From assembly GCA_934086955.1 (NCBI GenBank), contig CAKOIN010000004.1, positions 46,719 to 110,718 on the forward strand: a DNA stretch of 64,000 bases. Direction: 5' to 3'. Under the pieces are notes generated by a model. That model searched no databases, had not been told where the DNA came from, and worked only from the letters and a program-made list of their open reading frames with translations. The DNA comes from an uncultured Bacilli bacterium (GTDB lineage Bacteria > Bacillota_I > Bacilli_A > RF39 > UBA660). Shown here in pieces: positions 1 to 46,157 of the stretch. Within the stretch, counting starts at the first letter, position 1. The number at the start of each line of letters is the position of its first letter. The position numbers were made by a program, and so were the translations under genes.

Positions 1-148
1 TAACAACTTTAAATGAATATGGAGCATATTTCTCATATGTACCTGCTACTTGATCTGCTAAAAATTTATATGAATTATCGCCTGTATTCTTACGATAAAA
101 ATATATAAATGCAATAATAGCAGCAACAACAAATATCTCAATATACAT
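1..148 (-). CDS. Partial membrane protein; N-terminus present (MYIEIFVVAAIIAFIYFYRK...), C-terminus lies beyond window start. Sits where TadB-like genes are found downstream of a CpaF/TadA ATPase.
   Basis: ATG at 146-148 (minus) preceded by GGAGGTG; hand translation of the reverse complement gives an open frame with a hydrophobic N-terminus to position 1. Too short for the ORF track. Confidence 0.3.
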   Translation of the reverse strand, partial: MYIEIFVVAAIIAFIYFYRKNTGDNSYKFLADQVAGTYEKYAPYSFKVV

Positions 149-159
149 TATTTCACCTC

Positions 160-1359
160 CTATATATCAACAATTTCAAGTTTGGAATTGTCATTTACAC
201 TTTGATTAACTGTATTTACAGACCCATTTACAGTAGTGTTAACATTAGAATCAAGTTCACTTGTTCCAACATCACTATCTGTAGATTTAAGTTCACTACC
301 CTTTGGTATAAACGGATCTTCCGGCATCATAACACCTTGACTAGCTAAATAATCAATTAAATGACTAGTCGGATTATTATAAACTTCATTATCCACTAAA
401 TCTCTTGAATAAAGAACATTAACTTTTGCTTTATTATCAGTATCATCTACATAAAATTCTACAACTTGTGTAATCTCTCTTTGAAATCTATTATATTTCT
501 TAGAAAAGAAACCTTTAATATGTACTCCAAGTTGAATATATCTATGCATTGATGCAACAAATTGATCTATATCTTGACTAGATTCTAAAAGTGAATATAA
601 ACGCATTGGAATACTTGATGCTTTATCAGAGTGTATTGTTGATAAAATATTGTGTCCTGATGAAATTGAGTTACGAACAGCAAGAACAGCTTCAGCAGAA
701 CGAACCTCTGAAAGTAAAATCCATCTTGGGTTTTGTCTCATACAAGCCACCAAAACATCAGAATATGAAGCAATATTATTTGTTTTCATCGCAACAATAT
801 CACGATTAGGATAAATCTTATCTAAATGAAGTTCCAAAGTATCTTCAATAGTAATTATCTTTTCATCTTCTTTTATATTACTAGCAAGATATTTAATAAA
901 CTCTGTTTTACCTGAACCAGTTTCTCCACTAACAAGTATATTGCAGTGACCACTAACACAAGTAATTAAGAAATCATGTAATTTAAGAGATACATAATCT
1001 TCTTTAACAAGCTTATCTTTATTAAGTCTTATCATGGCTGGAGTTTTTCTTATAAGCAAAGCTATTCCATTAGTCGCTATAGAATCATGTACGAAGTTAA
1101 GACGAAGCTCAGCACTCTCAGCATCCAAAAGTGGATGAGCCATATTAAATGTCTTACCCATAACATTTGAACATTGAAATGCTAACTTTTCAACAACTTC
1201 ATTATTTATACCTTCAATCTTAACTGGATATACACCTTTACTAAGTGTTTTAACCCATAATTGACCACCATTAGAATATGAAATATCTGTTATATCATCA
1301 TTTTCTAATAAAGGCATAAATAAACCAAAATCTATTTGTGAAAAAACAACATTATCCAT
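160..1359 (-). CDS. CpaF/TadA/VirB11-family secretion ATPase (T2SS/T4P E-type) with a Ser/Thr/Asn-rich C-terminal tail
   Basis: Walker A 'VSGETGSGKTEF', 'ITIEDTLEL' Asp box and His-box region typical of PF00437 ATPases; ATG start; sits directly downstream of two CpaB-like genes. Confidence 0.8.
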   Translation of the reverse strand: MDNVVFSQIDFGLFMPLLENDDITDISYSNGGQLWVKTLSKGVYPVKIEGINNEVVEKLAFQCSNVMGKTFNMAHPLLDAESAELRLNFVHDSIATNGIALLIRKTPAMIRLNKDKLVKEDYVSLKLHDFLITCVSGHCNILVSGETGSGKTEFIKYLASNIKEDEKIITIEDTLELHLDKIYPNRDIVAMKTNNIASYSDVLVACMRQNPRWILLSEVRSAEAVLAVRNSISSGHNILSTIHSDKASSIPMRLYSLLESSQDIDQFVASMHRYIQLGVHIKGFFSKKYNRFQREITQVVEFYVDDTDNKAKVNVLYSRDLVDNEVYNNPTSHLIDYLASQGVMMPEDPFIPKGSELKSTDSDVGTSELDSNVNTTVNGSVNTVNQSVNDNSKLEIVDI

Positions 1360-1381
1360 GAAAAACCCTTTCTATATCTTT

Positions 1382-2179
1382 TTATTCATTTACTTTTATA
1401 TTATCGTCTCCTGCACCATTATCATCAATAATATCAGGAACAACCTTCTCACATCTACTTTCAATCAAATTTCTTAAATAAGTACTACTAATATTAGTTG
1501 TTTTATCATAATTCTTATTTCTTGGAACAGGAATTAAAGTACCAGATAAATACATAGCTTGTCTTAAAAGAATATGATATTCTTCAGAAACACTAAATAT
1601 TAATGCACTAGCATCTTTTTGATTTGAACCTTTTTTAAATATATGACTACCATCTTTATCTTTAACAGCAAGTATTGTAATACCTTCTATTAACTTACCT
1701 AAAACAAGTTGACCACTATCATCTTTAGTTTGATAATATAAATCAATCTTATCATTAGGGAATATTGAGTTACCATAAGTAGTCATAGTACTAACTGGAA
1801 GTGAGAATACTGTATCACCAGTTGGAATACTTGACCAAGCTGAATCTGGCATTCTCTTCCACTCTATAATAGCTGATGCATAAAATGCACTACCAGCTGG
1901 AATATATGTATTATAATTAACATACTTTCCAATTATACTTTTCTTATCTCTAATAACATTACTATTAAGCATAGATGCTGCTACTTCTATTTCCTCTATT
2001 AAATCCTCAGTTATTTCAGTTCTAGCAGGAATAGTTTCCTTAGCAACATAAATCTTAACTTTATTAATTTCTTTACTAACCCTATATTCATAAGCAAAAT
2101 ATAGAATTAATAAACACACTATACCCAAAACAATAGTAACTACTGTTTTATTTTCAAAAATCTTTTTTAGTCCCTTCAT
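1382..2179 (-). CDS. CpaB/RcpC-like Flp-pilus assembly protein (N-terminal TM plus SAF-like domain)
   Basis: N-terminal TM helix then 'IYVAKETIPARTEITEDLIEEIEV', matching the SAF/CpaB pattern; AGGAGGT RBS; 1-nt stop/start overlap with the upstream paralog. Confidence 0.6.
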   Translation of the reverse strand: MKGLKKIFENKTVVTIVLGIVCLLILYFAYEYRVSKEINKVKIYVAKETIPARTEITEDLIEEIEVAASMLNSNVIRDKKSIIGKYVNYNTYIPAGSAFYASAIIEWKRMPDSAWSSIPTGDTVFSLPVSTMTTYGNSIFPNDKIDLYYQTKDDSGQLVLGKLIEGITILAVKDKDGSHIFKKGSNQKDASALIFSVSEEYHILLRQAMYLSGTLIPVPRNKNYDKTTNISSTYLRNLIESRCEKVVPDIIDDNGAGDDNIKVNE

Positions 2180-2985
2180 TATTGATTACCTCCTTGAATA
2201 GGATTCATCTCTAAATCTTTTTCAGATACATCAACAGTTCTCTTTTCTATTATGCTCTTAATGTATGCACTACTAATTCTAGTAGGCTTTGGATTTAAAG
2301 AATATTCAGCATTTCTTGGTACTGGAATCAAAGTAATATCTTTATAAATTGCCTTTCTTAATAATAAGTGTAATTCTTCAGGAACAGTAAACATTAAATA
2401 TGCTGGAGATTCAACCTTAGTACTCTTTTCAAATATATTATTACCATCAGAATCAATAACAGCTAAAACTCTAATACTTTCAATAAACTTAGCAACTATT
2501 AACTTATCTTGTTCACCATAACCAACATAATATAAATCAATATAATTACCTGTGAATATTGAATTACCATATGTAGTTTCAAGTGAAACTGGCAATGTTA
2601 TAACTGTATAATCATCAGGGATATCTTCAAATAAACTTGATGGAAGTTCATCCCATGTCTTAATAGTATCTTTATAAAATAAACTACCAAGTGGTATCTC
2701 TACATCTTGAGATACATACTTACCAACAATCAAAGAAGAACTTATAATAACATCTCTTGTTATCATTCCACCAGGAACTTTCTTAATACCAATATCTTTA
2801 TTAACTATTTCAGTTCTTGGCTCTAATCTTCTTACCGCATAAGGTACACTTATTGGTTCAGTAGCTTTTTTAATTCTCAAATTATATGCATAATATAGTA
2901 TCGCAAGTGATGCTAATAATGCAAAAATAGTAACCGTATTTTTATTTTTTAAAAATCTTTTCAATGCAACTTTAATATTTCCCAT
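2179..2985 (-). CDS. CpaB/RcpC-like protein, second tandem paralog
   Basis: Same architecture (TM then 'PYAVRRLEPRTEIVNKDIGIKKV'); shared C-terminal 'TLIPVPRN' motif with 1382..2179. Start moved to the internal ATG (MGNIK) preceded by GGAGGA plus a 7-nt spacer. Confidence 0.6.
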   Translation of the reverse strand: MGNIKVALKRFLKNKNTVTIFALLASLAILYYAYNLRIKKATEPISVPYAVRRLEPRTEIVNKDIGIKKVPGGMITRDVIISSSLIVGKYVSQDVEIPLGSLFYKDTIKTWDELPSSLFEDIPDDYTVITLPVSLETTYGNSIFTGNYIDLYYVGYGEQDKLIVAKFIESIRVLAVIDSDGNNIFEKSTKVESPAYLMFTVPEELHLLLRKAIYKDITLIPVPRNAEYSLNPKPTRISSAYIKSIIEKRTVDVSEKDLEMNPIQGGNQ

Positions 2986-3062
2986 TCTTTTTTCCTCCAT
3001 AGACTTTTACTACTATCTATTCTAATTAATTATAACACATCAAATAAAAATATTTCAATATA

Positions 3063-4235
3063 TTATTCATTATAAATACAATAATCATGAAATTTTTCAC
3101 ATATAAATTTTTTATTAATCGAAAGTCCAAAATTATTATTAAACTTATTTTTATTAGATATTTTATTTCTTAAATCAACAATTCTTTTAGCAGAATCATC
3201 AATCATTTTTTCATCTATTTCTCCACTCTTAACAGCTTTTTCTATTAAATCTATAACTCTTTTTGAACCATTTGGCATAATAAACATATTCACACCTGCA
3301 TTAATAGCTTTAACATATATATCCTTTTCTGAATAATTATTCGAAATAGTTCCCATATTTACCGCATCAATCATAACCACACCATCAAACTTTAATTCAT
3401 TTCTTAATATATCATTTACAATAACAGATGATAATGAAGCTGGCAAATTATCATTAGTTATTTTAGGATAACTAGAATGCCCTACCATTATTACTTCAAC
3501 ACCCTCATTAATTAATTTAATAAACGGTTGTAAATCTGTATTATAAAGTTCTTCATAAGTTTTATTAACAATAGATACCTTAGAATCATGAGTATCATCA
3601 ACAGTATCACCAATACCAGGAAAATGTTTCACAATAGATATAACATCATTATCAATAATACCTTTGTATATTTCACTAGCATTAGAAATAACAATATCTT
3701 TATCATCTGATATCATTCTTTTACCCATAGCTGATGTTTTATAATCTCCAATATCAAGTACAGGAGAAAACACAGCATTAGCTCCAATACTTGATACCTC
3801 AGTACCAATAATATTACCTATTTTATATGAAACAGATTTATCATTAAGACTTCCAATATCATAAGCATTTGGTATAAATGTAGCTTTCTTATCTTTAATA
3901 TCATATAGTCTTTGAACACTACCGCCTTCTTGATCAACAGCTACAATCATATTCTTACCACCATATTTATATAAATCTGATATAAACTTTCTTGTTCTAT
4001 CATAACTAATTAAATTAGCTCCAGTTAAAATAAAACCACCAGGATTATTCTCTTTTAAAGAAGTTATTAAATCTTCATCAACTTCATCTAAATTATAATA
4101 TACCATTAACATTTGACCTATTTTTTCTCTTAGTGACATATTATCAATAGATAATTTATTATTTTTATTATAAATAAATATTACAGTTATAAATGCTATA
4201 ATACAAATTAATATTATAATTACTTTCTTTTTCAT
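3063..4235 (-). CDS. Glycoside hydrolase family 3 beta-N-acetylhexosaminidase (NagZ-like), N-terminally membrane-anchored so probably extracytoplasmic
   Basis: GH3 signature 'KHFPGIGDTVDDTHD' and 'GFILTGAN'; TM helix at N-terminus. The ORF-track start is GTG; I used the internal ATG (MKKK) with a GGTGAAG RBS. Confidence 0.7.
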   Translation of the reverse strand: MKKKVIIILICIIAFITVIFIYNKNNKLSIDNMSLREKIGQMLMVYYNLDEVDEDLITSLKENNPGGFILTGANLISYDRTRKFISDLYKYGGKNMIVAVDQEGGSVQRLYDIKDKKATFIPNAYDIGSLNDKSVSYKIGNIIGTEVSSIGANAVFSPVLDIGDYKTSAMGKRMISDDKDIVISNASEIYKGIIDNDVISIVKHFPGIGDTVDDTHDSKVSIVNKTYEELYNTDLQPFIKLINEGVEVIMVGHSSYPKITNDNLPASLSSVIVNDILRNELKFDGVVMIDAVNMGTISNNYSEKDIYVKAINAGVNMFIMPNGSKRVIDLIEKAVKSGEIDEKMIDDSAKRIVDLRNKISNKNKFNNNFGLSINKKFICEKFHDYCIYNE

Positions 4236-4270
4236 TACTTCACCTATCATATATAACAATGTTAGCACAT

Positions 4271-4313
4271 TTCATAAAAATTAAAAAGAGATAACTTTGT
4301 TAGCTATCTCTTA
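4271..4313 (-). terminator. Putative terminator/attenuator between the C39-peptidase gene and the GH3 gene
   Basis: aagagata-(11-nt loop)-tatctctt stem, followed on minus by UUUAAUUUUUAUGAA. Confidence 0.4.
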
Positions 4314-4317
4314 TTTA

Positions 4318-5457
4318 TTATTTTAATTTATATGAAGCTCCAAACCAGATACCACATTCATTAGTAGTACTGCATTTACCATGCCAATTAGTAAGAGCTG
4401 TATTATTAAATAAGCTATCTACATTATATGTACCATTTTGTTCACCAGCCCAAGGATTACATACTTGAATCTTATCAGGAGAACCCGAAATAGCAATATA
4501 ATGATTTGGAATTCTTAATATAATTGTTTCACCTCTGTTAAGTGCATCAGTTACAGCTTTCTTTCTATCAGCTACACTACTAGCACTATTAAATAGCTGT
4601 TTTCCTTCTAATCCTAACTTATCCATCAAACTTGAATCGGTAAGTGTAGAAGTAGCAACTCTACCACAAGTAGTAGAACCTTGTACTCCTTTACATTCTT
4701 CTGACTTTTGAGCAGGTATACTACTAGTTGCATGATTTGGACCATCCCATATTGTATTTTTTACATCATTAGGAGAAATATTTTTTCCAAATGCACTTGC
4801 AACCATCGAAATTGAAGTATATCCGCATCCTTGATTATATAAGTTTGCACCATTAGCAAATCCTGTTTTACTAGAATCATAATCATTTCTATTATAACTA
4901 GTTTGATATCCACAAGTTAATGGCGGTGCCACTTTTGTTTCCTCAACAGGTTCTTCTTCATCACCATCATCAGATGGAGGTAAAGCACCTGTACCAGCAG
5001 TTCCAATTCCAGAACCAGTTTGAGAAGGTAAAACATTAGAATTAAAATCAATACCATAAACTGTTTCTAAAATACCATGCATATAAGTATCTAATTTAAT
5101 ATCAAAACTACCAGACTTTAATGTTGCCTCTCCACTTACTGTTCTAATTCTAACAGTAGCCTTAGGAGGTTCTTCATAAATATCATAAAAATCTAACTGA
5201 TAATCTTTATTATTAGTAACATTCTCAGCAAATCTACGAATAAAAACTTCAACAAACTTTTCTTGAGACATTACTACTCTACCACTAGCTCTAAAAGTTC
5301 CATAATCTACAGCATCTAACATTGATGCTTCCATTATCTCTCTACCTAAATAGAAATCTTCTTCAGTAGTAGTTGTCATTCTCTGAACTAATAGAAGGAT
5401 AACTATTACTATAATAGCAAGTACTAAGATTAGATATCCCCATATTGACTCTTTCAT
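4318..5457 (-). CDS. Membrane-anchored protein with a C-terminal papain-fold C39-like cysteine peptidase domain
   Basis: N-terminal TM; C-terminal 'NQGCGYTSISMVASAFG' (Cys box) and later 'IPNHYIAISG' (His box) resemble Peptidase_C39_2/CHAP-like domains. Confidence 0.45.
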   Translation of the reverse strand: MKESIWGYLILVLAIIVIVILLLVQRMTTTTEEDFYLGREIMEASMLDAVDYGTFRASGRVVMSQEKFVEVFIRRFAENVTNNKDYQLDFYDIYEEPPKATVRIRTVSGEATLKSGSFDIKLDTYMHGILETVYGIDFNSNVLPSQTGSGIGTAGTGALPPSDDGDEEEPVEETKVAPPLTCGYQTSYNRNDYDSSKTGFANGANLYNQGCGYTSISMVASAFGKNISPNDVKNTIWDGPNHATSSIPAQKSEECKGVQGSTTCGRVATSTLTDSSLMDKLGLEGKQLFNSASSVADRKKAVTDALNRGETIILRIPNHYIAISGSPDKIQVCNPWAGEQNGTYNVDSLFNNTALTNWHGKCSTTNECGIWFGASYKLK

Positions 5458-5460
5458 ATA

Positions 5461-8400
5461 TTAATAGTCATCTCCTTTCACTCCATCAGATTTAATAACT
5501 TGAATACCAAAGTTATTACTATTAGTTCTAATTTCATTCATAAACGAAGTAGTACATTCATAGAATCCTCCAGTTGAATCACTTATAGGTACAGCATAAC
5601 ATTGATCGTAAGAGTTATCTATATATCCACCTCTAACATTTTTATTTTTATTGTATTCTTTTATTTTCTTAATAGCATCACTATTTAATATGAAGCTATA
5701 TTGTAAGTATTTATTACCATTGCTATACATATCACTAGCAGTTGCTTCAATAGCATCTTTTATATCAGAATTTTCTAACCAGTTATTACCAATAGGTCTT
5801 TCAGCTGGGAATAGATTTCCTAATTCAACATTTCTATAAATAAATCCATATCCTTTGGAATTAGTATTTTTATCACTCCAGTGAGCACAAGCACCTTCTT
5901 CACGAATTATTGGTACTCCGTTTTTTATTTCATAACATAAGTTATTACAAGCATCAGATAAATCAACATTACCAGCATCATCAACTTGAAGTTCACAATC
6001 ATATAAATTAGTTATATTATAAACTTCATATTGACAAGTAAATTCATAATAATCATGATTTAATATACCAGATTTACTTAATTTAGAACCAACTTTAGTA
6101 TATCTATGTTTTATATCATAAGCTTTTGTTGAACCACTTTCAGTATCCATACTTACAGGGAATACATATTTATCTAAGCTAAGTGAATTACCAGAACCAG
6201 CTCCTTCCCTAACTATCCCAGTATAAGCTTCTGTAGAATATTCTTTTGGCTGCCAGAAATCAGCTTCACTAACAACTGTAAATATAGCAAAGTCATTAAT
6301 AGGAAGTTCAATTTGTTTACCGCTAACAGCATTCTTCTCACATTTAGCATTAGTGTCATAGCCACTACAAGAAACTAAATCATGTTTTCCTAATAAATTT
6401 GATGCAGATAAATCAACTTCAGAGTTGAAATCACCATTATAGCAACTAGCATAATATGAATTTCCACCCTTCTTTTCATTTTCATCATTAACACAATATT
6501 TAGTTTGTTGTTCTTGTTCTTTAATATCTTCAATTTGTGTTAAAATTTCAACTTCTTTGCCAAAAGTAGTTGTTGCACCATAATTATGATCATCATAAGT
6601 TATGTCTAAACCAATACATTCTTCTTCATTTTCACAGTTAGCAAGTTTAAGAATATAGTCCTTAGTTGTTCCACCATCTATTGCATGAGTGAATGTTCCT
6701 TGATACTTAGGTCTATGTGGAGTATACCCACTAAAGTCAACATAACTCGCACTATTGTAATATAAATTCAAATCAGTACTTCTATATAAGTTACAGTTTT
6801 CCAATTCATATATTAATTGAGTAACATTATTAACAGCAGATTTAAATGCACCCCATAATGCTGCCTCTCGATCTTTAACTTTACAAGGCTCGTCACCCGC
6901 CTCGCCTTCTACACATCCAGAAGAGGCACCAGCAGTACAACTATAATGATGACAAGTATCTTTCTTTCCATTTATAGTACATGAATAAGAATCACACTCA
7001 CTATATGATGTTCCGTTACTTTGATGATATCTACCATCAATATCACTTGGAGCCACTGGACTACTACTAATATTAAATGTTACTTTATTTGAAGTGTTTT
7101 TACTATTATTATTTATATTATAGCCATTTCCACTACCAGTAGTTGATTTTGTATATCGTGGGCTGCCACTGTAAGGCCAAGTAAATACATGATCAAAACC
7201 TTCAAGTGTATCAGAAACAGGACAGGTACTTGGACAACCGCTACCACTGTTATAACAAAATACAGTAGGAGCATGATTTAATTTAGGATTACAACTACCC
7301 CAACCTTCATTTTTATGTAGTGTCTCATATGCTTTCCAACTTGACCAAGCATCAACCATATCTTTAACAGCTTTACCATACATTTTTTGCCATGTATTAT
7401 ATCCTTGTTTAATATAGGAATCATACTTAGAAGTTGTAGTCGAATAATTATATCTTGGATTTCTGTGGTCATAATATATCTCTGAAGCACATTGTCTCTT
7501 TTGAAGAACCATTGCTGTAAGAGAATGACCATTTGTTAATTTTCTCTTATCACCAAGAACATTTTCTATTTGATATTTAAATTGCATTCCAGCATAAACT
7601 CTTGTTTTATTTGCCATATAGAATTCAATCTCTTCACGACAGAATATTCTACATATACCAACATCAACACCATATTTATCGCTGAAATCATATTGATTTC
7701 TTTCACTAACATTACAAGCATTCATAATACAGTTCATGTAAGGCTCTTCAACAGTACCTTGATCGTAAGTATCATAAATACCTTGATTAAATTCTCCATA
7801 ATTTGAACAATATCCAGGAAGTGAATTTTGTACTTCAAAATTATCACATCTCTTTATTGGACCATTGCTTTCACAAGGACATACAACTGTAGTAGTCTTT
7901 GTTGCTATTTGTTCTAAGTCTTCTTTTTTAACTGTACTACCTGGAGTTACATCCTCATCCCCAGGAGTCTTACCATTAGTTTGCCAACCATTTATATCAA
8001 AACCTACAAATTGCTGAGCAATTTCACCGCTAGCAGTTACATAGTTTTTAATAAATGCATTTGGCCCACTACCGCTTTTCCCACCTGGAACACCATATAT
8101 GTGAACAACTAAATAATTATCAGTTTGAGTTGTCTCAGTTTGAGTACACATTTGAGAATATTTAGCAGTAAATTTACAATAATTTTTATCACAACCACCA
8201 GGCAAATTCTCAGTTGGAATAACTCTACCATATTTATCAGTAACAGTAATAACAACATTACATCCATCATCTAACTCATTACAGTATTTAACTGGAACTT
8301 CAATAGGAGTATCTTTTGTTACTATAGTTGAACCAATAAACATTTTTTTGAATTCTAATTCTATTTGAACATTTTTATTCTTTTTATCAAATTCAAAGTT

Positions 8401-9594
8401 AGCATCTATATCTTTTGAAGTTCCTATAGAAACATCACCTGAAGCCTCAGTATTAGATTGAACTTGATTAATAAAATCTGCTAATTTAGAATTCTGAGGA
8501 TTTTTAGCAAAATCAACAGCACTTTGTAATAATGATGCAAAATCTTCTATATTTTTTTTCTGAGTATCATTGCTATAACAAAATACACCTTTATTTTTAC
8601 AAGCATCATTACAGCTTATTGGTGTTCCTCCCTTAAGATAATATTCCATACTTTTATCATAAACATCAGTTGCTGAGTAATAATCAAATGCAGAAGCTTC
8701 AGCACTTGATGCTCCTGAACTTACACTACCATCAGAATCTTTGATTCCACCTTGACCATCTATATATTTATGATAATATGCTACATAAGCTCTTAGGGCT
8801 GAAGAAACTGAAGCATAAGAGTAACCAGCATCACTCTTTGATATATTACCATTTGCATCAAAACTTACATTAGCAGAATTAAGTAATACAGAAGCAAGAC
8901 CACATTGATATGAGTAACTACTATCACCTGTACAATTAGATAAATCAAAGTTCTCAAGAGCTTTATAATTCATTGCACTCTTGTCTGGACCACTTCTACC
9001 TTGTTGCAAACAATATATTCTTTCACTTATATTTGCAAAATCTGGATTAGATGAATTATATTCAACAGCAGGCATTGGTCTAACACTAGTATGTTTTTCT
9101 ACTGAAGTTTTATAATAAGAAAAGGTTGCCGTACAAGTAAATGATACAGGTGCTTCTCCAAGTCTAAGTTTTTGAACTGTATAATCATCATCAACACCAG
9201 CACTCATTAAAGTTGGCATATTATTCTTTGAGTCACTAATTTGATATTGAGTACCACTTCTTAAACAAGTTGCTTGTTGCACATTAGTAACTGTATAACC
9301 ATTCTTCTTTGCTTGAGCAACTCTTAGCTCAAGCTGTTTATTAACTTCCTTCATTAATTCTGGTCTTTTTGTTCCAGATCTTCTTATAGTTGCTGGAATT
9401 GCTTTTCCATCCTTTTTACTTGTCCAATCAATACAATAACTAAGATCTGTTGTAGAAGTCTTGCCTGAATTAAATATTTTAATATTAGTAGAACTTCCAG
9501 AATCACCAGTAACTGCAAAAGTTAAATCTATATTTAAGAAAAATATATTTAGAACTATTAATAAAACTAAAATTAATTTATTATTCTTTTTCAT
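5461..9594 (-). CDS. 1377-aa secreted cysteine-rich protein of unknown function (signal peptide; no C-terminal anchor or sorting motif seen)
   Basis: Long ORF with ATG start; classic signal peptide 'MKKNNKLILVLLIVLNIFFLNIDLTFA'; dozens of Cys throughout; 4-nt ATGA overlap with the upstream gene implies coupling. Confidence 0.8.
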   Translation of the reverse strand: MKKNNKLILVLLIVLNIFFLNIDLTFAVTGDSGSSTNIKIFNSGKTSTTDLSYCIDWTSKKDGKAIPATIRRSGTKRPELMKEVNKQLELRVAQAKKNGYTVTNVQQATCLRSGTQYQISDSKNNMPTLMSAGVDDDYTVQKLRLGEAPVSFTCTATFSYYKTSVEKHTSVRPMPAVEYNSSNPDFANISERIYCLQQGRSGPDKSAMNYKALENFDLSNCTGDSSYSYQCGLASVLLNSANVSFDANGNISKSDAGYSYASVSSALRAYVAYYHKYIDGQGGIKDSDGSVSSGASSAEASAFDYYSATDVYDKSMEYYLKGGTPISCNDACKNKGVFCYSNDTQKKNIEDFASLLQSAVDFAKNPQNSKLADFINQVQSNTEASGDVSIGTSKDIDANFEFDKKNKNVQIELEFKKMFIGSTIVTKDTPIEVPVKYCNELDDGCNVVITVTDKYGRVIPTENLPGGCDKNYCKFTAKYSQMCTQTETTQTDNYLVVHIYGVPGGKSGSGPNAFIKNYVTASGEIAQQFVGFDINGWQTNGKTPGDEDVTPGSTVKKEDLEQIATKTTTVVCPCESNGPIKRCDNFEVQNSLPGYCSNYGEFNQGIYDTYDQGTVEEPYMNCIMNACNVSERNQYDFSDKYGVDVGICRIFCREEIEFYMANKTRVYAGMQFKYQIENVLGDKRKLTNGHSLTAMVLQKRQCASEIYYDHRNPRYNYSTTTSKYDSYIKQGYNTWQKMYGKAVKDMVDAWSSWKAYETLHKNEGWGSCNPKLNHAPTVFCYNSGSGCPSTCPVSDTLEGFDHVFTWPYSGSPRYTKSTTGSGNGYNINNNSKNTSNKVTFNISSSPVAPSDIDGRYHQSNGTSYSECDSYSCTINGKKDTCHHYSCTAGASSGCVEGEAGDEPCKVKDREAALWGAFKSAVNNVTQLIYELENCNLYRSTDLNLYYNSASYVDFSGYTPHRPKYQGTFTHAIDGGTTKDYILKLANCENEEECIGLDITYDDHNYGATTTFGKEVEILTQIEDIKEQEQQTKYCVNDENEKKGGNSYYASCYNGDFNSEVDLSASNLLGKHDLVSCSGYDTNAKCEKNAVSGKQIELPINDFAIFTVVSEADFWQPKEYSTEAYTGIVREGAGSGNSLSLDKYVFPVSMDTESGSTKAYDIKHRYTKVGSKLSKSGILNHDYYEFTCQYEVYNITNLYDCELQVDDAGNVDLSDACNNLCYEIKNGVPIIREEGACAHWSDKNTNSKGYGFIYRNVELGNLFPAERPIGNNWLENSDIKDAIEATASDMYSNGNKYLQYSFILNSDAIKKIKEYNKNKNVRGGYIDNSYDQCYAVPISDSTGGFYECTTSFMNEIRTNSNNFGIQVIKSDGVKGDDY

Positions 9595-10280
9595 TCGTTA
9601 TCCACCTTCTTTTTATATAAATGAATCTTTATAGCATAGAAAGCAGCAACTAATACTACAGGTATAACAGCAAAATACCAATTCTTTTTAATATAATACC
9701 AAACTTTTTGAATGAAATTCATATTTTCTAATTCATGTTGTTTTTCAGCATTTTTAACAAGCCTACCGAACTCTTTATCTGTAACATCTTTCATATCATT
9801 ACTATAAGTTTTACATATATCATCAGAAGGATTATTTATACAATACTCTCTCTGAGAAAAAATATTATATGGTGGAACTGTATATTCTAAACTTTTAAGT
9901 AAAACGCCTGGACATGCTGAATTCTTACCTCCATAAAAAGAGAAAGTATATGTTTTACTATCCATATGAACATATGAACCTAAAACATTAGTGCCATATA
10001 AATCATCATACTCTATTTCAATATCTTTATTAGTATGATTATTTCTAGCCATAACCTTTATATTTTTATTATAAGGATAAATAAATAGAAGATATGAATA
10101 TTCTTTTTCTCTAATAATATTTCCTTTTTCATCTCCAACTCCCAAATCCTCATCATAATTGATATAAACATTCTCTGCCCACTCATTCAAATCTTTATCA
10201 TTACAAGTAGCTGCATTTACTCCAAATGAAAAGACAAATAAGCAAAAAATACTAAATAAAATTTTTTTCAATTCCTTCAT
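9591..10280 (-). CDS. Small secreted protein with signal peptide and C-terminal TM anchor
   Basis: ATG with AGGTGA RBS; signal peptide '...FSFGVNAATC'; C-terminal hydrophobic 'YFAVIPVVLVAAFYAI' followed by a basic tail. Confidence 0.65.
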   Translation of the reverse strand: MKELKKILFSIFCLFVFSFGVNAATCNDKDLNEWAENVYINYDEDLGVGDEKGNIIREKEYSYLLFIYPYNKNIKVMARNNHTNKDIEIEYDDLYGTNVLGSYVHMDSKTYTFSFYGGKNSACPGVLLKSLEYTVPPYNIFSQREYCINNPSDDICKTYSNDMKDVTDKEFGRLVKNAEKQHELENMNFIQKVWYYIKKNWYFAVIPVVLVAAFYAIKIHLYKKKVDNE

Positions 10281-10359
10281 ATTTCACCTACTTTATTCTA
10301 GAAAAATTATAACATAACTAATTAAAAATGTCATTAAAATATTAAAAAACATGATACTT

Positions 10360-11013
10360 TTATATACCATGTTTAACTTTCTTAAATATCTTATTTCCAA
10401 TTAATGCAGTAATTGCACCAAATACAACAAATACAATTATATTAATACCCCAGGAAAAAAAGAAATCTTTAGCAGCATCTACAATCAATTCAAATGTAGT
10501 TTTCTTAGGAGTTTCCGGTTTAACTACAGGATCTATTTTTTTTTCAATTTGAGCTATCGCATCATCTAATATCTCCTCTGTTAATCTATAAGATAAAAAT
10601 TTAGATGAACAAAGTTTTAATTTATCTTCGTATGGTTCACACTTTTGTGTTCTAAAAAATGAATTATAATAAGGAAGAGTAATAAATATTGTATTTAAAG
10701 TGCCTGTACAATCTCCTGAAGCTTCCACATAAACAGTTAAATATTTTCCTTCTTCTTGACCACTTAATGTGACAGCATAATTATCACTACCATTACTTAT
10801 ATACACATTTTTATTAATCATTAAATACATCCCAGGAAACACATTATAAAAAGTAACAGTAAATGTTTTACTACTCATACTATAAGATGTTTCATAAGTT
10901 ATATCACTCGCTAAACCTTTTAATTCATTATATTTTGAATCAGTACACTCTGCTTTAATAGAACCTAACATCAAAAACATACTAATAAATATTATAAATA
11001 TTTTTTTCTTCAT
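10360..11013 (-). CDS. Small secreted protein with signal peptide and C-terminal TM anchor (same topology as 9591..10280)
   Basis: ATG with AGGATGGTGA RBS; signal peptide 'MLGSIKAEC'; C-terminal 'INIIVFVVFGAITALIG' then KKVKHGI. Confidence 0.65.
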   Translation of the reverse strand: MKKKIFIIFISMFLMLGSIKAECTDSKYNELKGLASDITYETSYSMSSKTFTVTFYNVFPGMYLMINKNVYISNGSDNYAVTLSGQEEGKYLTVYVEASGDCTGTLNTIFITLPYYNSFFRTQKCEPYEDKLKLCSSKFLSYRLTEEILDDAIAQIEKKIDPVVKPETPKKTTFELIVDAAKDFFFSWGINIIVFVVFGAITALIGNKIFKKVKHGI

Positions 11014-12620
11014 TATTCACCATCCTTAATAAGTACTGCATGAACAACCATTCTTCTATTTCCTCCACCAGCACAAGTAGATAATGTTAATATTTTATCT
11101 CCGTATTCAACTGTATCTTTTGTTTTAAAACCACTTCTTTTTCTAATCATTTTAACAAAAGCATCGAAGTCTTCTTTACTATCAAAATTATCAACTAAAT
11201 AATCAGTAGTATAATCCACTCTATAAGCAGCAAATATTTTAAACTTATATGATTTAGCCGGAGTATCTAATGAAATAATCATATTTTCACTATTTTTTCT
11301 AAAGCTACTATTTAGAACTCTATGTAATGTCCCAAACATAGTTCCATTTAACATACTATGACCATAAACAATACTATTATCATCAAGTTCACTCATATTA
11401 TTTCTATAATCTAAATATATCCATCCCATACTAGTTTTCTTTTTATAGAAATCTCTTTTTAAATAATAACTATTATCAGAATGTTGTACTAAAGGATAAG
11501 ATATATTAGTACCATTAACAACTAAATAACCTACTGTTTCATTATTAATTTTTTTTAATTTAGAAAATACTTTATCAAAAGTATATTTATCTTTAACTTG
11601 TTTATCATTTAATTTCTGATCAAGTATAACTCCATCATTAGTTAATTCATCTTCGCTAACATTATCTGGTAAAGCAAAAGAACTATTTATTATTTCTTGA
11701 TTAACTTCATCTATACTCATCTTTTCTATATATTCATATGATTTATATATAAGTAAACAAACAACACTTACATATACAGCCATTATAGATATAAGTTTTA
11801 AATTATTAAATGTTAATTGTTTAAACAAATTATTTCTTAAAAAATCATTTGAATATAATATTCTAAATTCACATGTATAATCTTCTTTACATTTCTTATT
11901 TAATTCTTTTAACCATGCAAAATTATTTACTATAAAGTTACCTTTATCTTTTCCTTGATGTAAAAACACTATTATATTTCTTGCTTCATCATTTTTAACT
12001 AAATCTATTACATTACTTATTAATTCCTTAGAAAATACATAAATATGTATTGATTTTAAATTATAATTAATTCTTAAGAATTCTTTTATATCATCAAGTA
12101 AACCAGGATATTCTTCTCTTATTTCTAACATCTTTCTATAATACAATGTTTCATAATCAAAAGAATCCTGTGATATCATAAATCTATCACTTACTTTATT
12201 ACGATTATATAAATTAACTACAACACCTTTATCATTAAATTTATCTTTAATAAAAGATGGCATAAAATAACAATCTATTTGTTTTAAAGTATTAACTGTT
12301 AAAAATAATTCATAATCATTTAAACCAATAGTGGATGGAATATCTAATTTTAAATATTTCATCTTAAGTCTTATCATCATAATAACTACATATTTAAATG
12401 TAACTAATCTTCTTACATTCATAGTATCTAAATTATTATAATTTTCTTTTATTTTATTAATTATCTTTTCATAGTTATTACTGTAATATCTCATAGAATA
12501 ATATAAAGTATTATCATTAAACTCATTTTTATTAACAAATTTAGATAATGATTCATCAATAGACTTAAAATCATATGTAAGTACATTATCTTTAATTGAA
12601 ATAATTAAATACTCTTTCAT
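11013..12620 (-). CDS. srtB: Class B sortase with a roughly 300-aa N-terminal extension and internal TM segment
   Basis: Catalytic motifs 'SIVYGHSM' (His) and 'ILTLSTCAGGGNRRMVVHAVL' (TLSTC Cys plus Arg), which is class-B-like; AGGAGA RBS. Confidence 0.7.
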   Translation of the reverse strand: MKEYLIISIKDNVLTYDFKSIDESLSKFVNKNEFNDNTLYYSMRYYSNNYEKIINKIKENYNNLDTMNVRRLVTFKYVVIMMIRLKMKYLKLDIPSTIGLNDYELFLTVNTLKQIDCYFMPSFIKDKFNDKGVVVNLYNRNKVSDRFMISQDSFDYETLYYRKMLEIREEYPGLLDDIKEFLRINYNLKSIHIYVFSKELISNVIDLVKNDEARNIIVFLHQGKDKGNFIVNNFAWLKELNKKCKEDYTCEFRILYSNDFLRNNLFKQLTFNNLKLISIMAVYVSVVCLLIYKSYEYIEKMSIDEVNQEIINSSFALPDNVSEDELTNDGVILDQKLNDKQVKDKYTFDKVFSKLKKINNETVGYLVVNGTNISYPLVQHSDNSYYLKRDFYKKKTSMGWIYLDYRNNMSELDDNSIVYGHSMLNGTMFGTLHRVLNSSFRKNSENMIISLDTPAKSYKFKIFAAYRVDYTTDYLVDNFDSKEDFDAFVKMIRKRSGFKTKDTVEYGDKILTLSTCAGGGNRRMVVHAVLIKDGE

Positions 12621-12689
12621 ATCCTATTCTCCTATTAAAATAATTTTATCACAAAAACAATTAAAAAAAAATAGATTAAATATATAAAT

Positions 12690-13808
12690 TTAACCTATTC
12701 TAAATGCTGGTGAAACTCCACCTAACCCATTTGGCTCAGTACCTAGCCAACCACCATGACTATATACTAAATAAAAAGTATCATTTAAACAAGAAAAAGT
12801 TGAACGAAGCCACCACCAAGTAGCAACAGTTCCTTTTTTCTTTATTGCACCACTATAACTATCTGTAGTAACTCCTAAATTTTGATAATAATCTAACTGT
12901 CTTGTTAAATTACTTGTAGTATCATAATCTATTGTACTTGTTGTTCCTTGTTCCCATACCTCTACTGTACTAAGTAAATATAATTTATCTATTGATACAA
13001 AATTATCTGTATCTTCACTTCCATGACCAGAAACCACTCTAGTATCTATTATTACACTCTTTAAATCATTTGGTAGTGCATTATATATATCGTTATTTAC
13101 AAATAAATACAAGTTTGATGCAGGCCATCCATCCTTATTCCACCCTTGATAATAATTTTTCCCTTTATAAATACCACCAGGATTCATAATATGAGTAGTT
13201 ATTATATCTGCAAACTCAATAACAAATCCACAAGCTGTTTGTGAGAAACCTTCTGTTGAACATTCACTTGGTGTTGATACATTTGCTATTCTTACTGTAT
13301 GTGTACCATAAGTTCCTAAATCTATCTCTTTTGTATCTCCTACATTATAACCTTCAATATCAGAATTTCTAACATTATCTACTATTGTTTCCCATGAATC
13401 GTTTTTAAATGATTTTTTTAATTTTTGACACTCACCTTCAGTAATCTTGTCAATTGTTAATTCACTTAAATTTTTAAATTTTCCACTTAAACAATATGTA
13501 TCATTACTTACTTGAAAATCTTTAATATTGCCTTTGCTGTCTAATTTAATATTGTAATCTAAATTATTTGAGTCTAAATCCAACTTATTACTTGAATTAG
13601 ATATATTGTTAACTTTATTACCCTTCATATTTTCAGATATATATTTTTTAGATACTTCTTTATATATAGTTTTAGCTTCTGTTAAAAACACATCTTTCTT
13701 AGCTTGATTAAACATATTAAGTACATTAGGAAGAGCTATAATAACAAGTAAAGCAAGTATTGCTATAACAGCTAATAATTCTACAAGAGTAAAACCATTT
13801 TTATTCAT
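12690..13808 (-). CDS. Type IV pilin/pseudopilin-like protein (class III signal peptide) with a 340-aa globular C-terminal region
   Basis: N-terminus 'MNKNGFTLVELLAVIAILALLVIIALP' is the prepilin-peptidase cleavage/N-methylation motif (G/F-T-L-V-E); GAGGTG RBS. Confidence 0.75.
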   Translation of the reverse strand: MNKNGFTLVELLAVIAILALLVIIALPNVLNMFNQAKKDVFLTEAKTIYKEVSKKYISENMKGNKVNNISNSSNKLDLDSNNLDYNIKLDSKGNIKDFQVSNDTYCLSGKFKNLSELTIDKITEGECQKLKKSFKNDSWETIVDNVRNSDIEGYNVGDTKEIDLGTYGTHTVRIANVSTPSECSTEGFSQTACGFVIEFADIITTHIMNPGGIYKGKNYYQGWNKDGWPASNLYLFVNNDIYNALPNDLKSVIIDTRVVSGHGSEDTDNFVSIDKLYLLSTVEVWEQGTTSTIDYDTTSNLTRQLDYYQNLGVTTDSYSGAIKKKGTVATWWWLRSTFSCLNDTFYLVYSHGGWLGTEPNGLGGVSPAFRIG

Positions 13809-21345: not shown

Positions 21346-21372
21346 AATGAAAAAGAAGTATCTCTACTTCTA
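21346..21372 (-). terminator. Terminator immediately after the 2443-aa LRR gene
   Basis: gaagta-tctc-tacttc hairpin abutting the TAG stop, followed on minus by UUUUUCAUU. Confidence 0.4.
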
Positions 21373-46061: not shown

Positions 46062-46157
46062 TTTCGTATCCTCCTTTTATGATATAATCATAACATTATT
46101 TTTTTTATAATTCAATTATTTTTATAAAATTTATGATAAAATATCTTTGTGATAAAC

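What the first reader, a model, noticed from the sequence alone, without database searches (positions are those of the whole stretch)
1..4235. Tad/Cpa-like module (two CpaB, CpaF/TadA ATPase, partial membrane protein) led by a membrane-anchored GH3 hexosaminidase, with no Flp pilin in view
Two tandem CpaB/RcpC paralogs plus a CpaF-type ATPase indicate a Tad-type machine, but it is headed by an extracytoplasmic NagZ-like GH3 enzyme and sits next to the pilin/sortase operon. The GH3 enzyme, together with the C39-like peptidase upstream, may locally remodel peptidoglycan for an envelope-spanning structure. No small Flp-type pilin ORF is visible in the window.
Basis: partly seen in the sequence, partly recalled or inferred. 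Interest (0 to 1): 0.5.

Follow-up and report, generated by a model that had tools for sequence, protein, structure and literature searches.

The report
Divergent Tad-like pilus locus, GH3 inserted
The window's left end holds part of a highly divergent, unannotated Tad-type pilus machine that is conserved across hundreds of uncultured gut Bacilli, and the glycosidase that seems to lead it is a recent insertion in one species group, not part of the machine.

Summary
They are the start of a membrane protein (1-148), a secretion-type ATPase (160-1359), two CpaB-like paralogs (1382-2179 and 2179-3000) and a membrane-anchored NagZ-type GH3 enzyme (3063-4235). No Flp-type ORF lies in the window.

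The locus continues past the window edge. Identical metagenome contigs show a 299-aa and a 263-aa membrane protein, then a 100-aa candidate pilin, then 176-aa, 314-aa and 115-aa proteins.

The 299-aa protein has no Pfam hit. Its model matches the PilC/EpsF cytoplasmic fold, and it aligns to an annotated T2SS-F protein in a syntenic Priestia plasmid locus.

The core order DUF5411, CpaB, ATPase, TadB-like, TadC-like, pilin recurs in nearly all 86 related loci.

The GH3 gene occurs only in the closest relatives. It sits between a terminator-like hairpin and the conserved cpaB promoter. A 67%-identical ortholog checked in another species lies beside glmS.

The "Tad-type machine" reading is therefore supported. 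The "GH3-led wall remodelling" reading is not. The system is a new variant of a known kind. It lacks an Flp-family pilin and a detectable TadZ, and no prepilin peptidase was found nearby. It is related to pLS20 conjugation genes 37-38.

The parts
1..148 (-). First 49 codons of a 299-aa TadB-like platform protein (start ATG at 148..146); the rest lies beyond the window edge
160..1359 (-). Secretion ATPase of the CpaF/FlaI/VirB11 group (399 aa). Walker A GETGSGKT, Asp box IEDTLEL, SEVR and His box HS are readable in the sequence. Low-complexity C-terminal tail.
   Evidence: Pfam T2SSE 4e-27. PDB: FlaI 2.5e-18, CpaF 3.9e-18, VirB11 2.7e-15. NCBIfam: VirB11, TadA, TrbB and FlaI models, all below cut-off. 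At least 551 related stretches in species-representative genomes.
1382..2179 (-). CpaB-like protein 2 (265 aa): N-terminal membrane helix, SAF domain and RcpC-like domain
   Evidence: TIGR03177 8.8e-12, RcpC 1.2e-5, SAF 2e-3. 29% identity, E=5e-27, to the SAF-domain protein next to DUF5411 in the Priestia plasmid locus.
2179..3000 (-). CpaB-like protein 1 (273 aa as the longest ORF; the probable start at 2985 gives 268 aa). A lineage-specific duplicate of CpaB.
   Evidence: TIGR03177 1.7e-6, RcpC 6.5e-5. 43% identical to CpaB-like 2. Only one copy in most distant loci. Called as 268 aa on metagenome contigs.
3029..3058 (-). Sigma-70-like promoter TTGAAA-18-TATAAT with TG extension, directly upstream of cpaB1. 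Probable start of the machinery operon.
   Evidence: 11 of 12 match. The same sequence is conserved upstream of cpaB1 in L009, which lacks GH3. Consensus matches in AT-rich DNA are common, so function is inferred.
3063..4235 (-). Membrane-anchored single-domain GH3 beta-N-acetylglucosaminidase (NagZ type, 390 aa), inserted in this lineage only
   Evidence: Pfam 4.6e-65; NF003740 1.9e-48. PDB: 6k5j 6.9e-49, B. subtilis YbbD/NagZ 7.5e-44, with KHFPGIGDTVDDTH and MIDAVNM aligned to the catalytic motifs. Present only in L001-L008 and L090/L091.
4286..4312 (-). Terminator-like hairpin plus T-run directly after the DUF5411 gene. Separates the adhesin/DUF5411 unit from GH3 and the machinery operon.
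   Evidence: 11-pair stem. The hairpin is conserved in L009.
4318..5457 (-). DUF5411 protein (379 aa): conserved N-terminal membrane-anchored DUF5411 module (1-132) plus a lineage-specific C39-like cysteine peptidase domain
   Evidence: DUF5411 4.3e-47; Peptidase_C39_2 3.4e-5. DUF5411 lies directly upstream of cpaB in nearly all loci. The C39-like part is in 9 of 66. The C-terminal domains vary, 134-573 aa.
5461..9594 (-). 1377-aa secreted cysteine-rich protein with no known domain; candidate adhesin or cargo of the system
   Evidence: No Pfam or NCBIfam hit. Always directly upstream of DUF5411, and the cassette is duplicated in L025. 64% identity between strains whose machinery genes are 96-100% identical. 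The same position is held by an Ig-like or thioester adhesin in plasmid relatives.
9591..10280 (-). 229-aa protein with signal peptide and C-terminal membrane anchor; part of the cassette 229-aa protein, large protein, DUF5411
   Evidence: No family hit.

Best explanation
Window 1-3058, together with about 4 kb beyond the window edge, encodes the machinery operon of a divergent Tad-like (type IV filament) system of a wall-bearing, reduced-genome gut Bacillus-class bacterium. The MAGs are labelled Mycoplasmatota, Tenericutes or Bacilli; I infer the RF39 type.

Proposed mechanism, inferred from the known working of Tad, type IV pilus and archaellum machines:
- The hexameric CpaF/FlaI-like ATPase drives a membrane platform made of the two paralogous GspF-fold proteins (299 and 263 aa).
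- The platform lifts a small pilin out of the membrane and polymerises it. The pilin is about 100 aa, with a nearly invariant N-terminus MKEATG|ELNMT, a hydrophobic helix and a variable Cys-containing C-terminus.
- The bitopic CpaB-like proteins, duplicated in this lineage, form the extracytoplasmic collar.
- The DUF5411 protein and the 176-aa protein are membrane-anchored accessory or minor subunits.
- The large hypervariable protein encoded just upstream is the likely adhesin.

Shown here: homology of the ATPase, CpaB and platform proteins, and the conserved synteny. Inferred: filament formation, pilin processing and the adhesin role.

The GH3 gene is a NagZ-type exo-glucosaminidase that landed in the intergenic gap between the adhesin/DUF5411 unit and the machinery operon in one species group. 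It most likely serves amino-sugar scavenging or muropeptide turnover, not pilus assembly.
For: ATPase family and nearest structures.
CpaB-like assignments.

Platform proteins:
- The 299-aa family aligns to the Priestia T2SS-F family protein at 98.8%, E=1.2e-16. That protein itself hits Pfam T2SSF at 3.4e-5.
- The 263-aa family aligns to the next Priestia gene at 97.6%, E=3.9e-12.
- The two families align to each other over 231 columns, E=5e-4.

Synteny: the core order is conserved in nearly all of 86 loci. Relatives occur in at least 551 stretches of species-representative genomes.

Pilin candidate: residues 1-10 are nearly invariant across 57 distinct sequences while the C-terminus varies.

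GH3 as an insertion.
GH3 catalytic motifs.
Adhesin position and strain hypervariability.

Literature: a DUF5411 + CpaF + PilC/GspF operon was predicted in gut Clostridia (PMC9523054, section 10). A Tad-like cluster recognisable mainly by structure was described in TANB77 (PMC11680825).
Against: - No Flp-family pilin. None of the 57 small proteins hits Pfam Flp_Fap, and the putative mature N-terminus has Glu at +1 rather than the Flp EY motif.
- No A24 prepilin peptidase in the 64-kb window or in the 10 kb beyond it.
- No detectable TadZ/CpaE. The 314-aa protein has no Pfam, PDB or Priestia AAA_31-like match.
- The platform proteins have no direct Pfam or PDB sequence hit.
- The CpaB hits are below the curated cut-offs.
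- The locus also carries a T4SS_pilin-like 115-aa protein (32 of 39 members, best 2e-7), and the ATPase's best NCBIfam model is VirB11.
- GH3 has no terminator-like site after it, so read-through into cpaB is possible and co-expression cannot be excluded.
- No filament has been seen; the organism is uncultured.
Confidence: 0.72

Rival explanations
1. One reading: the GH3 hexosaminidase, with the C39-like peptidase, is a dedicated wall-remodelling component that opens peptidoglycan for the envelope-spanning Tad structure.
For: GH3 lies directly upstream of cpaB1 on the same strand, with no terminator-like site between them. It is extracytoplasmic by its N-terminal anchor and has intact catalytic motifs. 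The arrangement is kept across a clade whose GH3 proteins diverge to 85% identity. A 67% ortholog elsewhere also sits among type-IV-pilin-like N_methyl genes.
Against: GH3 is absent from 78 of 86 related loci, including the nearest sister species. It is flanked by a conserved terminator-like hairpin and the conserved cpaB promoter. The same slot is empty or holds unrelated genes elsewhere. NagZ-type GH3 enzymes are exo-glycosidases that do not cut glycan strands internally (established knowledge of the family). The C39-like domain is in only 9 of 66 DUF5411 proteins. The machine is therefore built without either enzyme in most species.
Confidence: 0.08
2. The module is a relic or part of a Gram-positive type IV secretion (conjugation) system: a VirB11-type ATPase with a VirB2-like pilin, rather than a Tad-type pilus.
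For: The best NCBIfam model for the ATPase is VirB11, 1.1e-32. The nearest plasmid homologs include pLS20-family gene 37, called 'putative VirB11', 30.7% identity, E=2e-29 (PMC8557374). The 115-aa protein family hits Pfam T4SS_pilin in 32 of 39 members. The pLS20 gene 38 product is homologous to the 299-aa family, 97.2%, E=4.3e-11.
Against: No VirB4, VirD4, VirB6, VirB8 or relaxase in the window or within 10 kb beyond it. The locus is chromosomal and syntenic across hundreds of species, next to ltaS and lytR. The partner membrane proteins have the GspF/PilC fold, which belongs to type IV filament machines and not to T4SS. CpaB-like proteins are Tad components. Among solved structures the ATPase scores higher with FlaI and CpaF than with VirB11.
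Confidence: 0.1
3. The machine assembles or exports the classical GFTLVE-type (N_methyl) pilin-fusion proteins that are abundant in these genomes (for example 12690-13808 and 34886-36133). The 100-aa protein would then not be the major subunit.
For: An N_methyl + DUF6273 gene lies in the same gene string about 9 kb upstream on the same strand. A second N_methyl + DUF285 gene is in the window. No PilB/ComGA-type assembly ATPase was seen in the window.
Against: The N_methyl genes are not conserved next to the machinery in related loci, whereas the 100-aa gene is. A PilB/ComG system may simply lie elsewhere in the genome. Tad-type platforms are not known to take type IVa-like pilins (established knowledge).
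Confidence: 0.1

Closest known systems
Tad/Flp (type IVc) pilus systems, e.g. Caulobacter Cpa and Aggregatibacter Tad
   Same: A CpaF/TadA-group ATPase, two paralogous single-domain GspF-fold platform proteins directly downstream, CpaB/RcpC-like bitopic protein(s) upstream, and a small pilin-like gene in the operon.
   Different: No Flp-family pilin or G/XXXXEY motif. No TadV/CpaA peptidase nearby. No recognisable TadZ/CpaE. No secretin, as expected in a monoderm. The platform proteins escape Pfam T2SSF. CpaB is duplicated. DUF5411 and a T4SS_pilin-like protein are extra conserved members.
DUF5411-associated CpaF + PilC/GspF operon predicted in gut Clostridia (Miller et al. 2022, PMC9523054), and the same architecture on a Priestia koreensis plasmid (NZ_CP061869)
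   Same: The order large surface protein, DUF5411, SAF/CpaB, ATPase, T2SS-F protein, second membrane protein. Protein-level homology for CpaB and both platform proteins.
   Different: Priestia has an AAA_31-like (TadZ-like) gene between CpaB and the ATPase. Here that position holds a second CpaB, and the 314-aa downstream protein shows no similarity to it. Sequence identity is low: 36% for the ATPase and under 20% for the platform.
pLS20-family conjugation operon genes 34-45 (Val-Calvo et al. 2021, PMC8557374): Tie adhesin, 'putative VirB11' (gene 37) and unknowns 36, 38-41, 45
   Same: The same gene order: adhesin, small N-terminally anchored protein, ATPase, about 268-aa and about 243-aa membrane proteins, about 120-aa N-terminally anchored protein, small one-helix protein(s), two-helix 76-aa protein. 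ATPase 30.7% identity. Gene 38 is homologous to the 299-aa family, 97.2%, E=4.3e-11.
   Different: The pLS20 module lies inside a conjugation operon with VirD4, VirB4 and VirB6, and lacks CpaB. Homology of gene 39 is weak (32%). Homology of the small proteins is not detectable. The locus here is chromosomal with no DNA-transfer genes nearby.
Tad-like pilus cluster of the uncultured gut clade TANB77 (PMC11680825)
   Same: A monoderm gut lineage with a reduced genome. CpaB, TadA and TadB/TadC are recognisable mainly by structure, followed by several short one-helix 'pilin-like' proteins without family hits.
   Different: TANB77 has a fused TadC-TadB (693 aa), a 640-aa ATPase and recognisable TadZ/CpaE.
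Bacillus subtilis NagZ/YbbD (GH3 exo-beta-N-acetylglucosaminidase)
   Same: GH3 N-terminal catalytic domain with the Asp-His dyad motif and the nucleophile Asp aligned. Extracytoplasmic location.
   Different: Single-domain, 390 aa against 642 aa. Membrane-anchored by an uncleaved-looking N-terminal helix instead of a lipoprotein signal. Sits in a pilus locus in this species group only.

Membership tests
Tad/Flp (type IVc) pilus system | CpaF/TadA-type secretion ATPase (T2SSE fold with Walker A/B, Asp and His boxes) | tested here: met
   T2SSE 4e-27. CpaF 3.9e-18 and FlaI 2.5e-18 are the top PDB hits. The motifs GETGSGKT, IEDTLEL, SEVR and TIHS are read in the sequence. It cannot be separated from FlaI or VirB11 by score alone.
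Tad/Flp (type IVc) pilus system | Two paralogous platform proteins, TadB and TadC, each with one T2SSF (GspF) domain, directly after the ATPase | tested here: met
Tad/Flp (type IVc) pilus system | Flp-family prepilin (Pfam Flp_Fap; G/XXXXEY processing motif) | tested here: not met
   No such ORF in the window. The conserved 76-109-aa candidate outside the window has MKEATG|ELNMT and no Flp_Fap hit in 57 sequences.
Tad/Flp (type IVc) pilus system | Dedicated A24 prepilin peptidase (TadV/CpaA) in or near the locus | tested here: inconclusive
   No Peptidase_A24 hit among the window ORFs scanned, or among the precomputed Pfam of genes within 10 kb beyond. It may lie elsewhere in the genome, which could not be searched.
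Tad/Flp (type IVc) pilus system | TadZ/CpaE (ParA/MinD-like localisation protein) | tested here: inconclusive
   The 314-aa conserved protein has no Pfam hit in 40 members, no PDB hit, and no similarity to the AAA_31-like protein of the Priestia locus. A degenerate P-loop-like stretch (GFKNMTQHAGATT) is only my reading.
Tad/Flp (type IVc) pilus system | CpaB/RcpC (SAF + RcpC domains, N-terminal anchor) | tested here: met
   TIGR03177 8.8e-12 and 1.7e-6; RcpC 1.2e-5 and 6.5e-5. Both are below the curated cut-offs but significant.
Type IV secretion (VirB/D4-type conjugation) system | VirB4 and VirD4 ATPases, VirB6/VirB8 channel proteins and a relaxase | tested here: not met
   None found in the window or within 10 kb beyond it. 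Only a VirB11-like score for the ATPase and a T4SS_pilin-like 115-aa protein.
GH3 NagZ-type beta-N-acetylglucosaminidase | GH3 catalytic domain with the motif KH(F/I)PG(H/L)GX4D(S/T)H (Asp-His dyad) and the nucleophile Asp | tested here: met
   KHFPGIGDTVDDTH and GVVMIDAVNM align to KHFPGHGDTDVDSH and GVIVTDALNM of B. subtilis YbbD. NF003740 1.9e-48 is below the equivalog cut-off of 207 bits. The motif definition comes from my knowledge of the family.
GH3 NagZ-type beta-N-acetylglucosaminidase | Exo-hydrolysis of terminal GlcNAc from muropeptides | not testable with these tools
   Needs an enzyme assay.
pLS20-type adhesin and ATPase module (genes 34-45) | Homologous ATPase followed by homologs of genes 38 and 39 in the same order | tested here: met
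   ATPase 30.7% identity, E=2e-29. Gene 38: 97.2%, E=4.3e-11. Gene 39: only 32%, E=4.8e-4, but 89% for the Paraclostridium plasmid homolog. Gene order.

The most novel reading that the evidence does not exclude
The RF39-type chromosomal locus, the DUF5411-linked loci of Clostridia and Bacillales, and pLS20 genes 36-45 together form one distinct monoderm branch of the type IV filament superfamily. It would have its own pilin class (short leader MKEATG, Glu at +1, no Flp motif), platform proteins invisible to current models, and a VirB2-like two-helix subunit. It would display large hypervariable adhesins. In reduced-genome gut Bacilli it would be the main attachment organelle, possibly for living on other cells. 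In pLS20-type plasmids it would be a real mating pilus in Gram-positive conjugation, which is generally held to lack one.
Probability: 0.3. Interest if true: 0.75.

Novelty: new variant of a known kind. Interest (0 to 1): 0.45.

Why it matters
The specific claim, a Tad machine led by a wall-remodelling GH3 enzyme, turns out to be an ordinary gene insertion.

What lies under it is more useful. A whole pilus-type machine is conserved in at least 551 related stretches in a one-genome-per-species collection of uncultured, auxotrophic gut Bacilli. Public records name nearly all its parts 'hypothetical protein'. Only the ATPase, one CpaB-like protein (named as a SAF-domain protein) and DUF5411 carry family-level labels.

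Recognising the 299/263-aa pair as TadB/TadC-like gives these lineages a candidate attachment organelle, with a strain-variable adhesin cassette.

It also gives a testable function to pLS20 conjugation genes 37-38, with weaker sequence support for gene 39. Gene 37 is annotated 'putative VirB11' and genes 38 and 39 'unknown'. pLS20 is genetically tractable in B. subtilis, unlike RF39.

Tried and rejected
- Direct Pfam scans of the 299-, 263-, 100-, 176- and 314-aa proteins gave nothing useful.
- Profiles of the 299-, 263- and 314-aa families against PDB sequences gave nothing.
- The word-indexed homolog search with the 299-aa profile was saturated by close relatives, all unnamed.
- The exhaustive representative search found only 300 hits. 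The distant full-length ones carry no Pfam domain.
- The first AF2 model, from a shallow alignment, was poor (pLDDT 62) and was not used. Adding distant members raised pLDDT to 80.
- The afdb50 fold library was unavailable.
- The 314-aa protein could not be tied to TadZ.
- The 176-aa, 100-aa and 115-aa families gave no significant hhalign match to the small proteins of the Priestia, Paraclostridium or pLS20-family loci.
- I first read DUF5411 as a pseudopilin with a conserved Gly cleavage site. I dropped this because the Gly at position 7 is not conserved across loci (W[GATF]Y).
- Promoter-like matches are no more frequent than in shuffled sequence. Only the two sites conserved in L009 are used.

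Full report
**What is in the window**

The region 1-13808 is a single string of genes on the minus strand in DNA of about 28% G+C. In the direction of transcription the genes are:

- An N_methyl (GFTLVE) pilin-like protein with DUF6273 (12690-13808).
- A 535-aa class B sortase (11013-12620).
- Two small proteins with a signal peptide and a C-terminal anchor (10360-11013 and 9591-10280).
- A 1377-aa secreted cysteine-rich protein with no family hit (5461-9594).
- A DUF5411 protein with a C39-like C-terminal domain (4318-5457).
- A GH3 enzyme (3063-4235).
- Two CpaB-like proteins (2179-3000 and 1382-2179).
- A T2SSE-family ATPase (160-1359).
- The first 49 codons of a membrane protein (148-1).

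That includes the absence of a Flp-type ORF. A motif scan of every ORF of at least 25 aa gave only two spurious matches.

**What lies beyond the window edge**

The exact ATPase sequence occurs on many gut-metagenome contigs. On a 157-kb contig identical to the window (L002), the ATPase is followed by these genes:

- A 299-aa and a 263-aa polytopic protein.
- A 100-aa protein with one hydrophobic helix.
- A 176-aa N-terminally anchored protein.
- A 314-aa soluble protein.
- A 115-aa two-helix protein.
- ltaS and two small genes, then lytR on the other strand.

None of the first five has a Pfam hit.

**Organism and spread**

A scan of one genome per species found at least 551 stretches encoding relatives of the ATPase. 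The best 80 come from uncultured gut MAGs labelled Bacilli, Tenericutes/Mycoplasmatota, 'Clostridium sp. CAG:1000', 'CAG:628' and 'Firmicutes CAG:321'. I take these to be the RF39-type reduced-genome Bacilli. That is my inference from the names, not a test.

The window also carries metG, pcrA/uvrD and ABC transporters. The locus is therefore chromosomal.

**The conserved core**

I ran tblastn with 20 locus proteins against 86 loci. One order on one strand recurs in almost all of them:

- DUF5411
- CpaB-like, in one or two copies
- ATPase
- the 299-aa protein
- the 263-aa protein
- the roughly 100-aa protein
- the roughly 176-aa protein
- the roughly 314-aa protein
- the roughly 115-aa protein

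The second CpaB copy is confined to the closer clade and a few others. The two copies here are 43% identical.

Upstream, the cassette of a 229-aa protein, a large protein and DUF5411 is conserved. It is duplicated in L025.

**The GH3 gene is an insertion**

- GH3 is found only in L001-L008, where the ATPase is at least 97% identical. It is absent from L009, which also has 97% ATPase identity but is clearly another species by its other genes. There DUF5411 is followed directly by cpaB1. It is also absent from all 77 other loci within 10 kb.
- Aligning the junctions shows two conserved elements in L009. One is a terminator-like hairpin directly after the DUF5411 stop (window 4312..4286). The other is a TTGAAA-18-TG-TATAAT promoter-like site directly before cpaB1 (3058..3029). 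The GH3 gene sits exactly between them.
- In other species the slot is variable. It is empty in L009 and L010. It holds a 229-aa lipoprotein in L012 and L030, and an 845-aa polytopic protein in L019.
- GH3 relatives of 85-100% identity lie in this same locus. The one 60-70%-identical relative checked (P0150, 67%), from another Bacilli MAG, lies elsewhere, between N_methyl/DUF285 genes next to glmS.
- The enzyme is a normal NagZ-type GH3. It aligns to B. subtilis YbbD/NagZ at 7.5e-44, with the Asp-His dyad motif and the nucleophile Asp in place.
- By established knowledge such enzymes remove terminal GlcNAc. They do not cleave glycan strands internally, so they are poor candidates for opening a path through the wall.
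- The C39-like domain is likewise found in only 9 of 66 DUF5411 proteins. Half of the DUF5411 proteins are just the 135-150-aa DUF5411 module.

**What the machine is**

ATPase:
- Among solved structures it scores best with FlaI (2.5e-18) and CpaF (3.9e-18). An archaeal GspE-like protein and VirB11 follow.
- NCBIfam gives VirB11, the actinobacterial TadA, TrbB and FlaI models, all far below their cut-offs.

Platform proteins:
- The 299- and 263-aa families resemble each other weakly over their whole length (hhalign E=5e-4, 231 columns). This is what a TadB/TadC-type pair would show.
- Sequence methods alone failed. There was no PDB hit. The 299-aa family has more than 8000 90%-identity clusters, none of them named. 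It has only 300 representatives among 1.84 billion, and the distant ones lack any domain.
- The bridge came from plasmids. The best tblastn hit of the ATPase (36% identity, 5e-47) is on a Priestia koreensis plasmid.
- There the gene order is: Ig-like large protein, DUF5411, SAF/CpaB, an AAA_31-like protein, a CpaF/VirB11 ATPase, a 'type II secretion system F family protein', a 279-aa protein and a DUF4320-like protein.
- The 299-aa family aligns to that T2SS-F protein at 98.8% probability, E=1.2e-16.
- The 263-aa family aligns to the 279-aa protein at 97.6%, E=3.9e-12.

The two membrane proteins are therefore GspF-fold platform proteins, and the machine belongs to the type IV filament superfamily with Tad-like composition.

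**The pilin candidate**

- The roughly 100-aa family has an almost invariant N-terminus, MKEATGELNMT.
- A hydrophobic helix ending in WP follows, then a variable C-terminal part with conserved cysteines.
- This is the layout of a type IV pilin with a short leader.
- It is not an Flp pilin. None of the 57 sequences hits Flp_Fap. If cleavage follows Gly6, the mature protein starts with Glu.
- No A24 prepilin peptidase is encoded in the window or within the next 10 kb.
- Processing and polymerisation are inferred, not shown.

**Other conserved members**

- The 115-aa family hits Pfam T4SS_pilin in 32 of 39 members, best 2e-7. That is unexpected in a Tad-type locus.
- The 314-aa protein could not be assigned.
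- Its position and a degenerate P-loop-like stretch make it a possible TadZ analogue. This remains untested.

**Relation to known systems**

- Miller et al. 2022 predicted a 'secretion-related' operon in Roseburia, Ruminococcus and Eubacterium with CpaF, PilC/GspF, DUF5411 and an internalin-like protein (PMC9523054, section 10).
- Kim et al. 2024 described a Tad-like cluster in TANB77, recognisable mostly by structure (PMC11680825).
- The ATPase also matches pLS20-family plasmids at 30.7% identity, E=2e-29.
- The pNARUSE region reads: thioester adhesin, 120 aa, 126 aa, ATPase (402 aa), 267 aa, 245 aa, 120 aa, 47 aa twice, 71, 63 and 76 aa, and further on VirD4.
- This corresponds to pLS20 genes 34-48. 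In the published annotation gene 37 is 'putative VirB11' and genes 36, 38-41 and 45 are 'unknown' (PMC8557374).
- Gene 38 is homologous to the 299-aa family, 97.2%, E=4.3e-11.
- Gene 39 is only weakly similar to the 263-aa family, 32%. The Paraclostridium plasmid homolog reaches 89%.
- The chromosomal locus here is thus a relative of a module that also travels with Gram-positive conjugation systems. It has CpaB added and no DNA-transfer genes nearby.

**Adhesin cassette**

- Some strains have machinery genes 96-100% identical to the window (L001, L004, L006). In those strains the large protein is only 64% identical and the DUF5411 protein 70% identical. The C39-like part is 53% identical.
- Plasmid relatives carry an Ig-like or thioester adhesin in the same position.
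- This supports, but does not prove, that the large protein is a surface adhesin shown by or with the filament.

**Verdict**

The Tad-type reading is supported and extended. The GH3-led, wall-remodelling reading is not supported.

The locus is not a canonical Tad locus. Three defining features fail or could not be shown: the Flp pilin, the TadV peptidase and TadZ. It is best filed as a new variant of a known kind.

Interest is moderate. The flagged oddity is ordinary. The underlying machine is widespread and almost wholly unannotated, and it links to genes of unknown function in a tractable conjugative plasmid.

Noticed in passing
L002:14957-15304 (about 3.6 kb beyond the window's left edge); family alignment A9: A conserved 115-aa two-helix protein at the end of the Tad-like operon belongs to Pfam T4SS_pilin (VirB2-like). 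32 of 39 family members hit it, best 2e-7. A T4SS-type pilin homolog inside a Tad-type locus is unexplained.
   Followed up: partly
L094 (pNARUSE, pLS20 family) 5452-10271; L093 (Paraclostridium plasmid) 8350-13168: pLS20 genes 36-45 ('putative VirB11' plus unknowns) have the gene order of a small Tad-like machine behind the Tie thioester adhesin. Gene 38 is homologous to the TadB-like family (97.2%, E=4.3e-11). This suggests a pilus-type module within a Gram-positive conjugation operon.
   Followed up: partly
window 5461-9594 and 4318-5457, compared with L001, L004 and L006: The 1377-aa protein is 64% identical and the DUF5411/C39 protein 70% identical between strains whose flanking machinery genes are 96-100% identical. 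This is an allelic hot spot, as expected for a surface-exposed adhesin cassette.
   Followed up: partly
window 12690-13808 and 34886-36133; L087-L089 4137-11227: Large proteins with a classical type IV prepilin N-terminus (GFTLVE, N_methyl) fused to DUF6273 or DUF285 domains are multi-copy in these genomes. No PilB/PilC/PilD was seen nearby. In L087-L089 a GH3 ortholog sits among four such genes next to glmS.
   Followed up: no
window 28708-29253 and 36224-36778: Two S26 signal-peptidase-like genes, each at the downstream end of a run of unannotated genes. One lies next to the N_methyl/DUF285 gene and the other next to a 2443-aa BspA-type LRR + CBM2 surface protein (21370-28701). They may be dedicated processing enzymes.
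   Followed up: no
window 11013-12620: The class B sortase (TIGR03064 1.2e-49) carries a roughly 290-aa N-terminal cytoplasmic extension and a membrane helix. The neighbouring 217- and 229-aa proteins have C-terminal anchors with positive tails but no clear sorting motif.
   Followed up: no
window 3000-4320 compared with L009, L010, L012, L019 and L030: The intergenic gap between the DUF5411 terminator-like hairpin and the cpaB promoter is a variable slot. Different species carry GH3, a 229-aa lipoprotein, an 845-aa polytopic protein or nothing there.
   Followed up: yes
window 42396-43070 and 43073-44140: A collagen-triple-helix-repeat protein is followed by a GT2 glycosyltransferase with TPR repeats. 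A YfhO-family protein lies at 46149-48653.
   Followed up: no
window 160-310 (C-terminal tail of the ATPase): The last 40 or so residues of the ATPase are a Ser/Asn/Val-rich low-complexity tail. It is not conserved in relatives, where matches end near residues 350-370.
   Followed up: no
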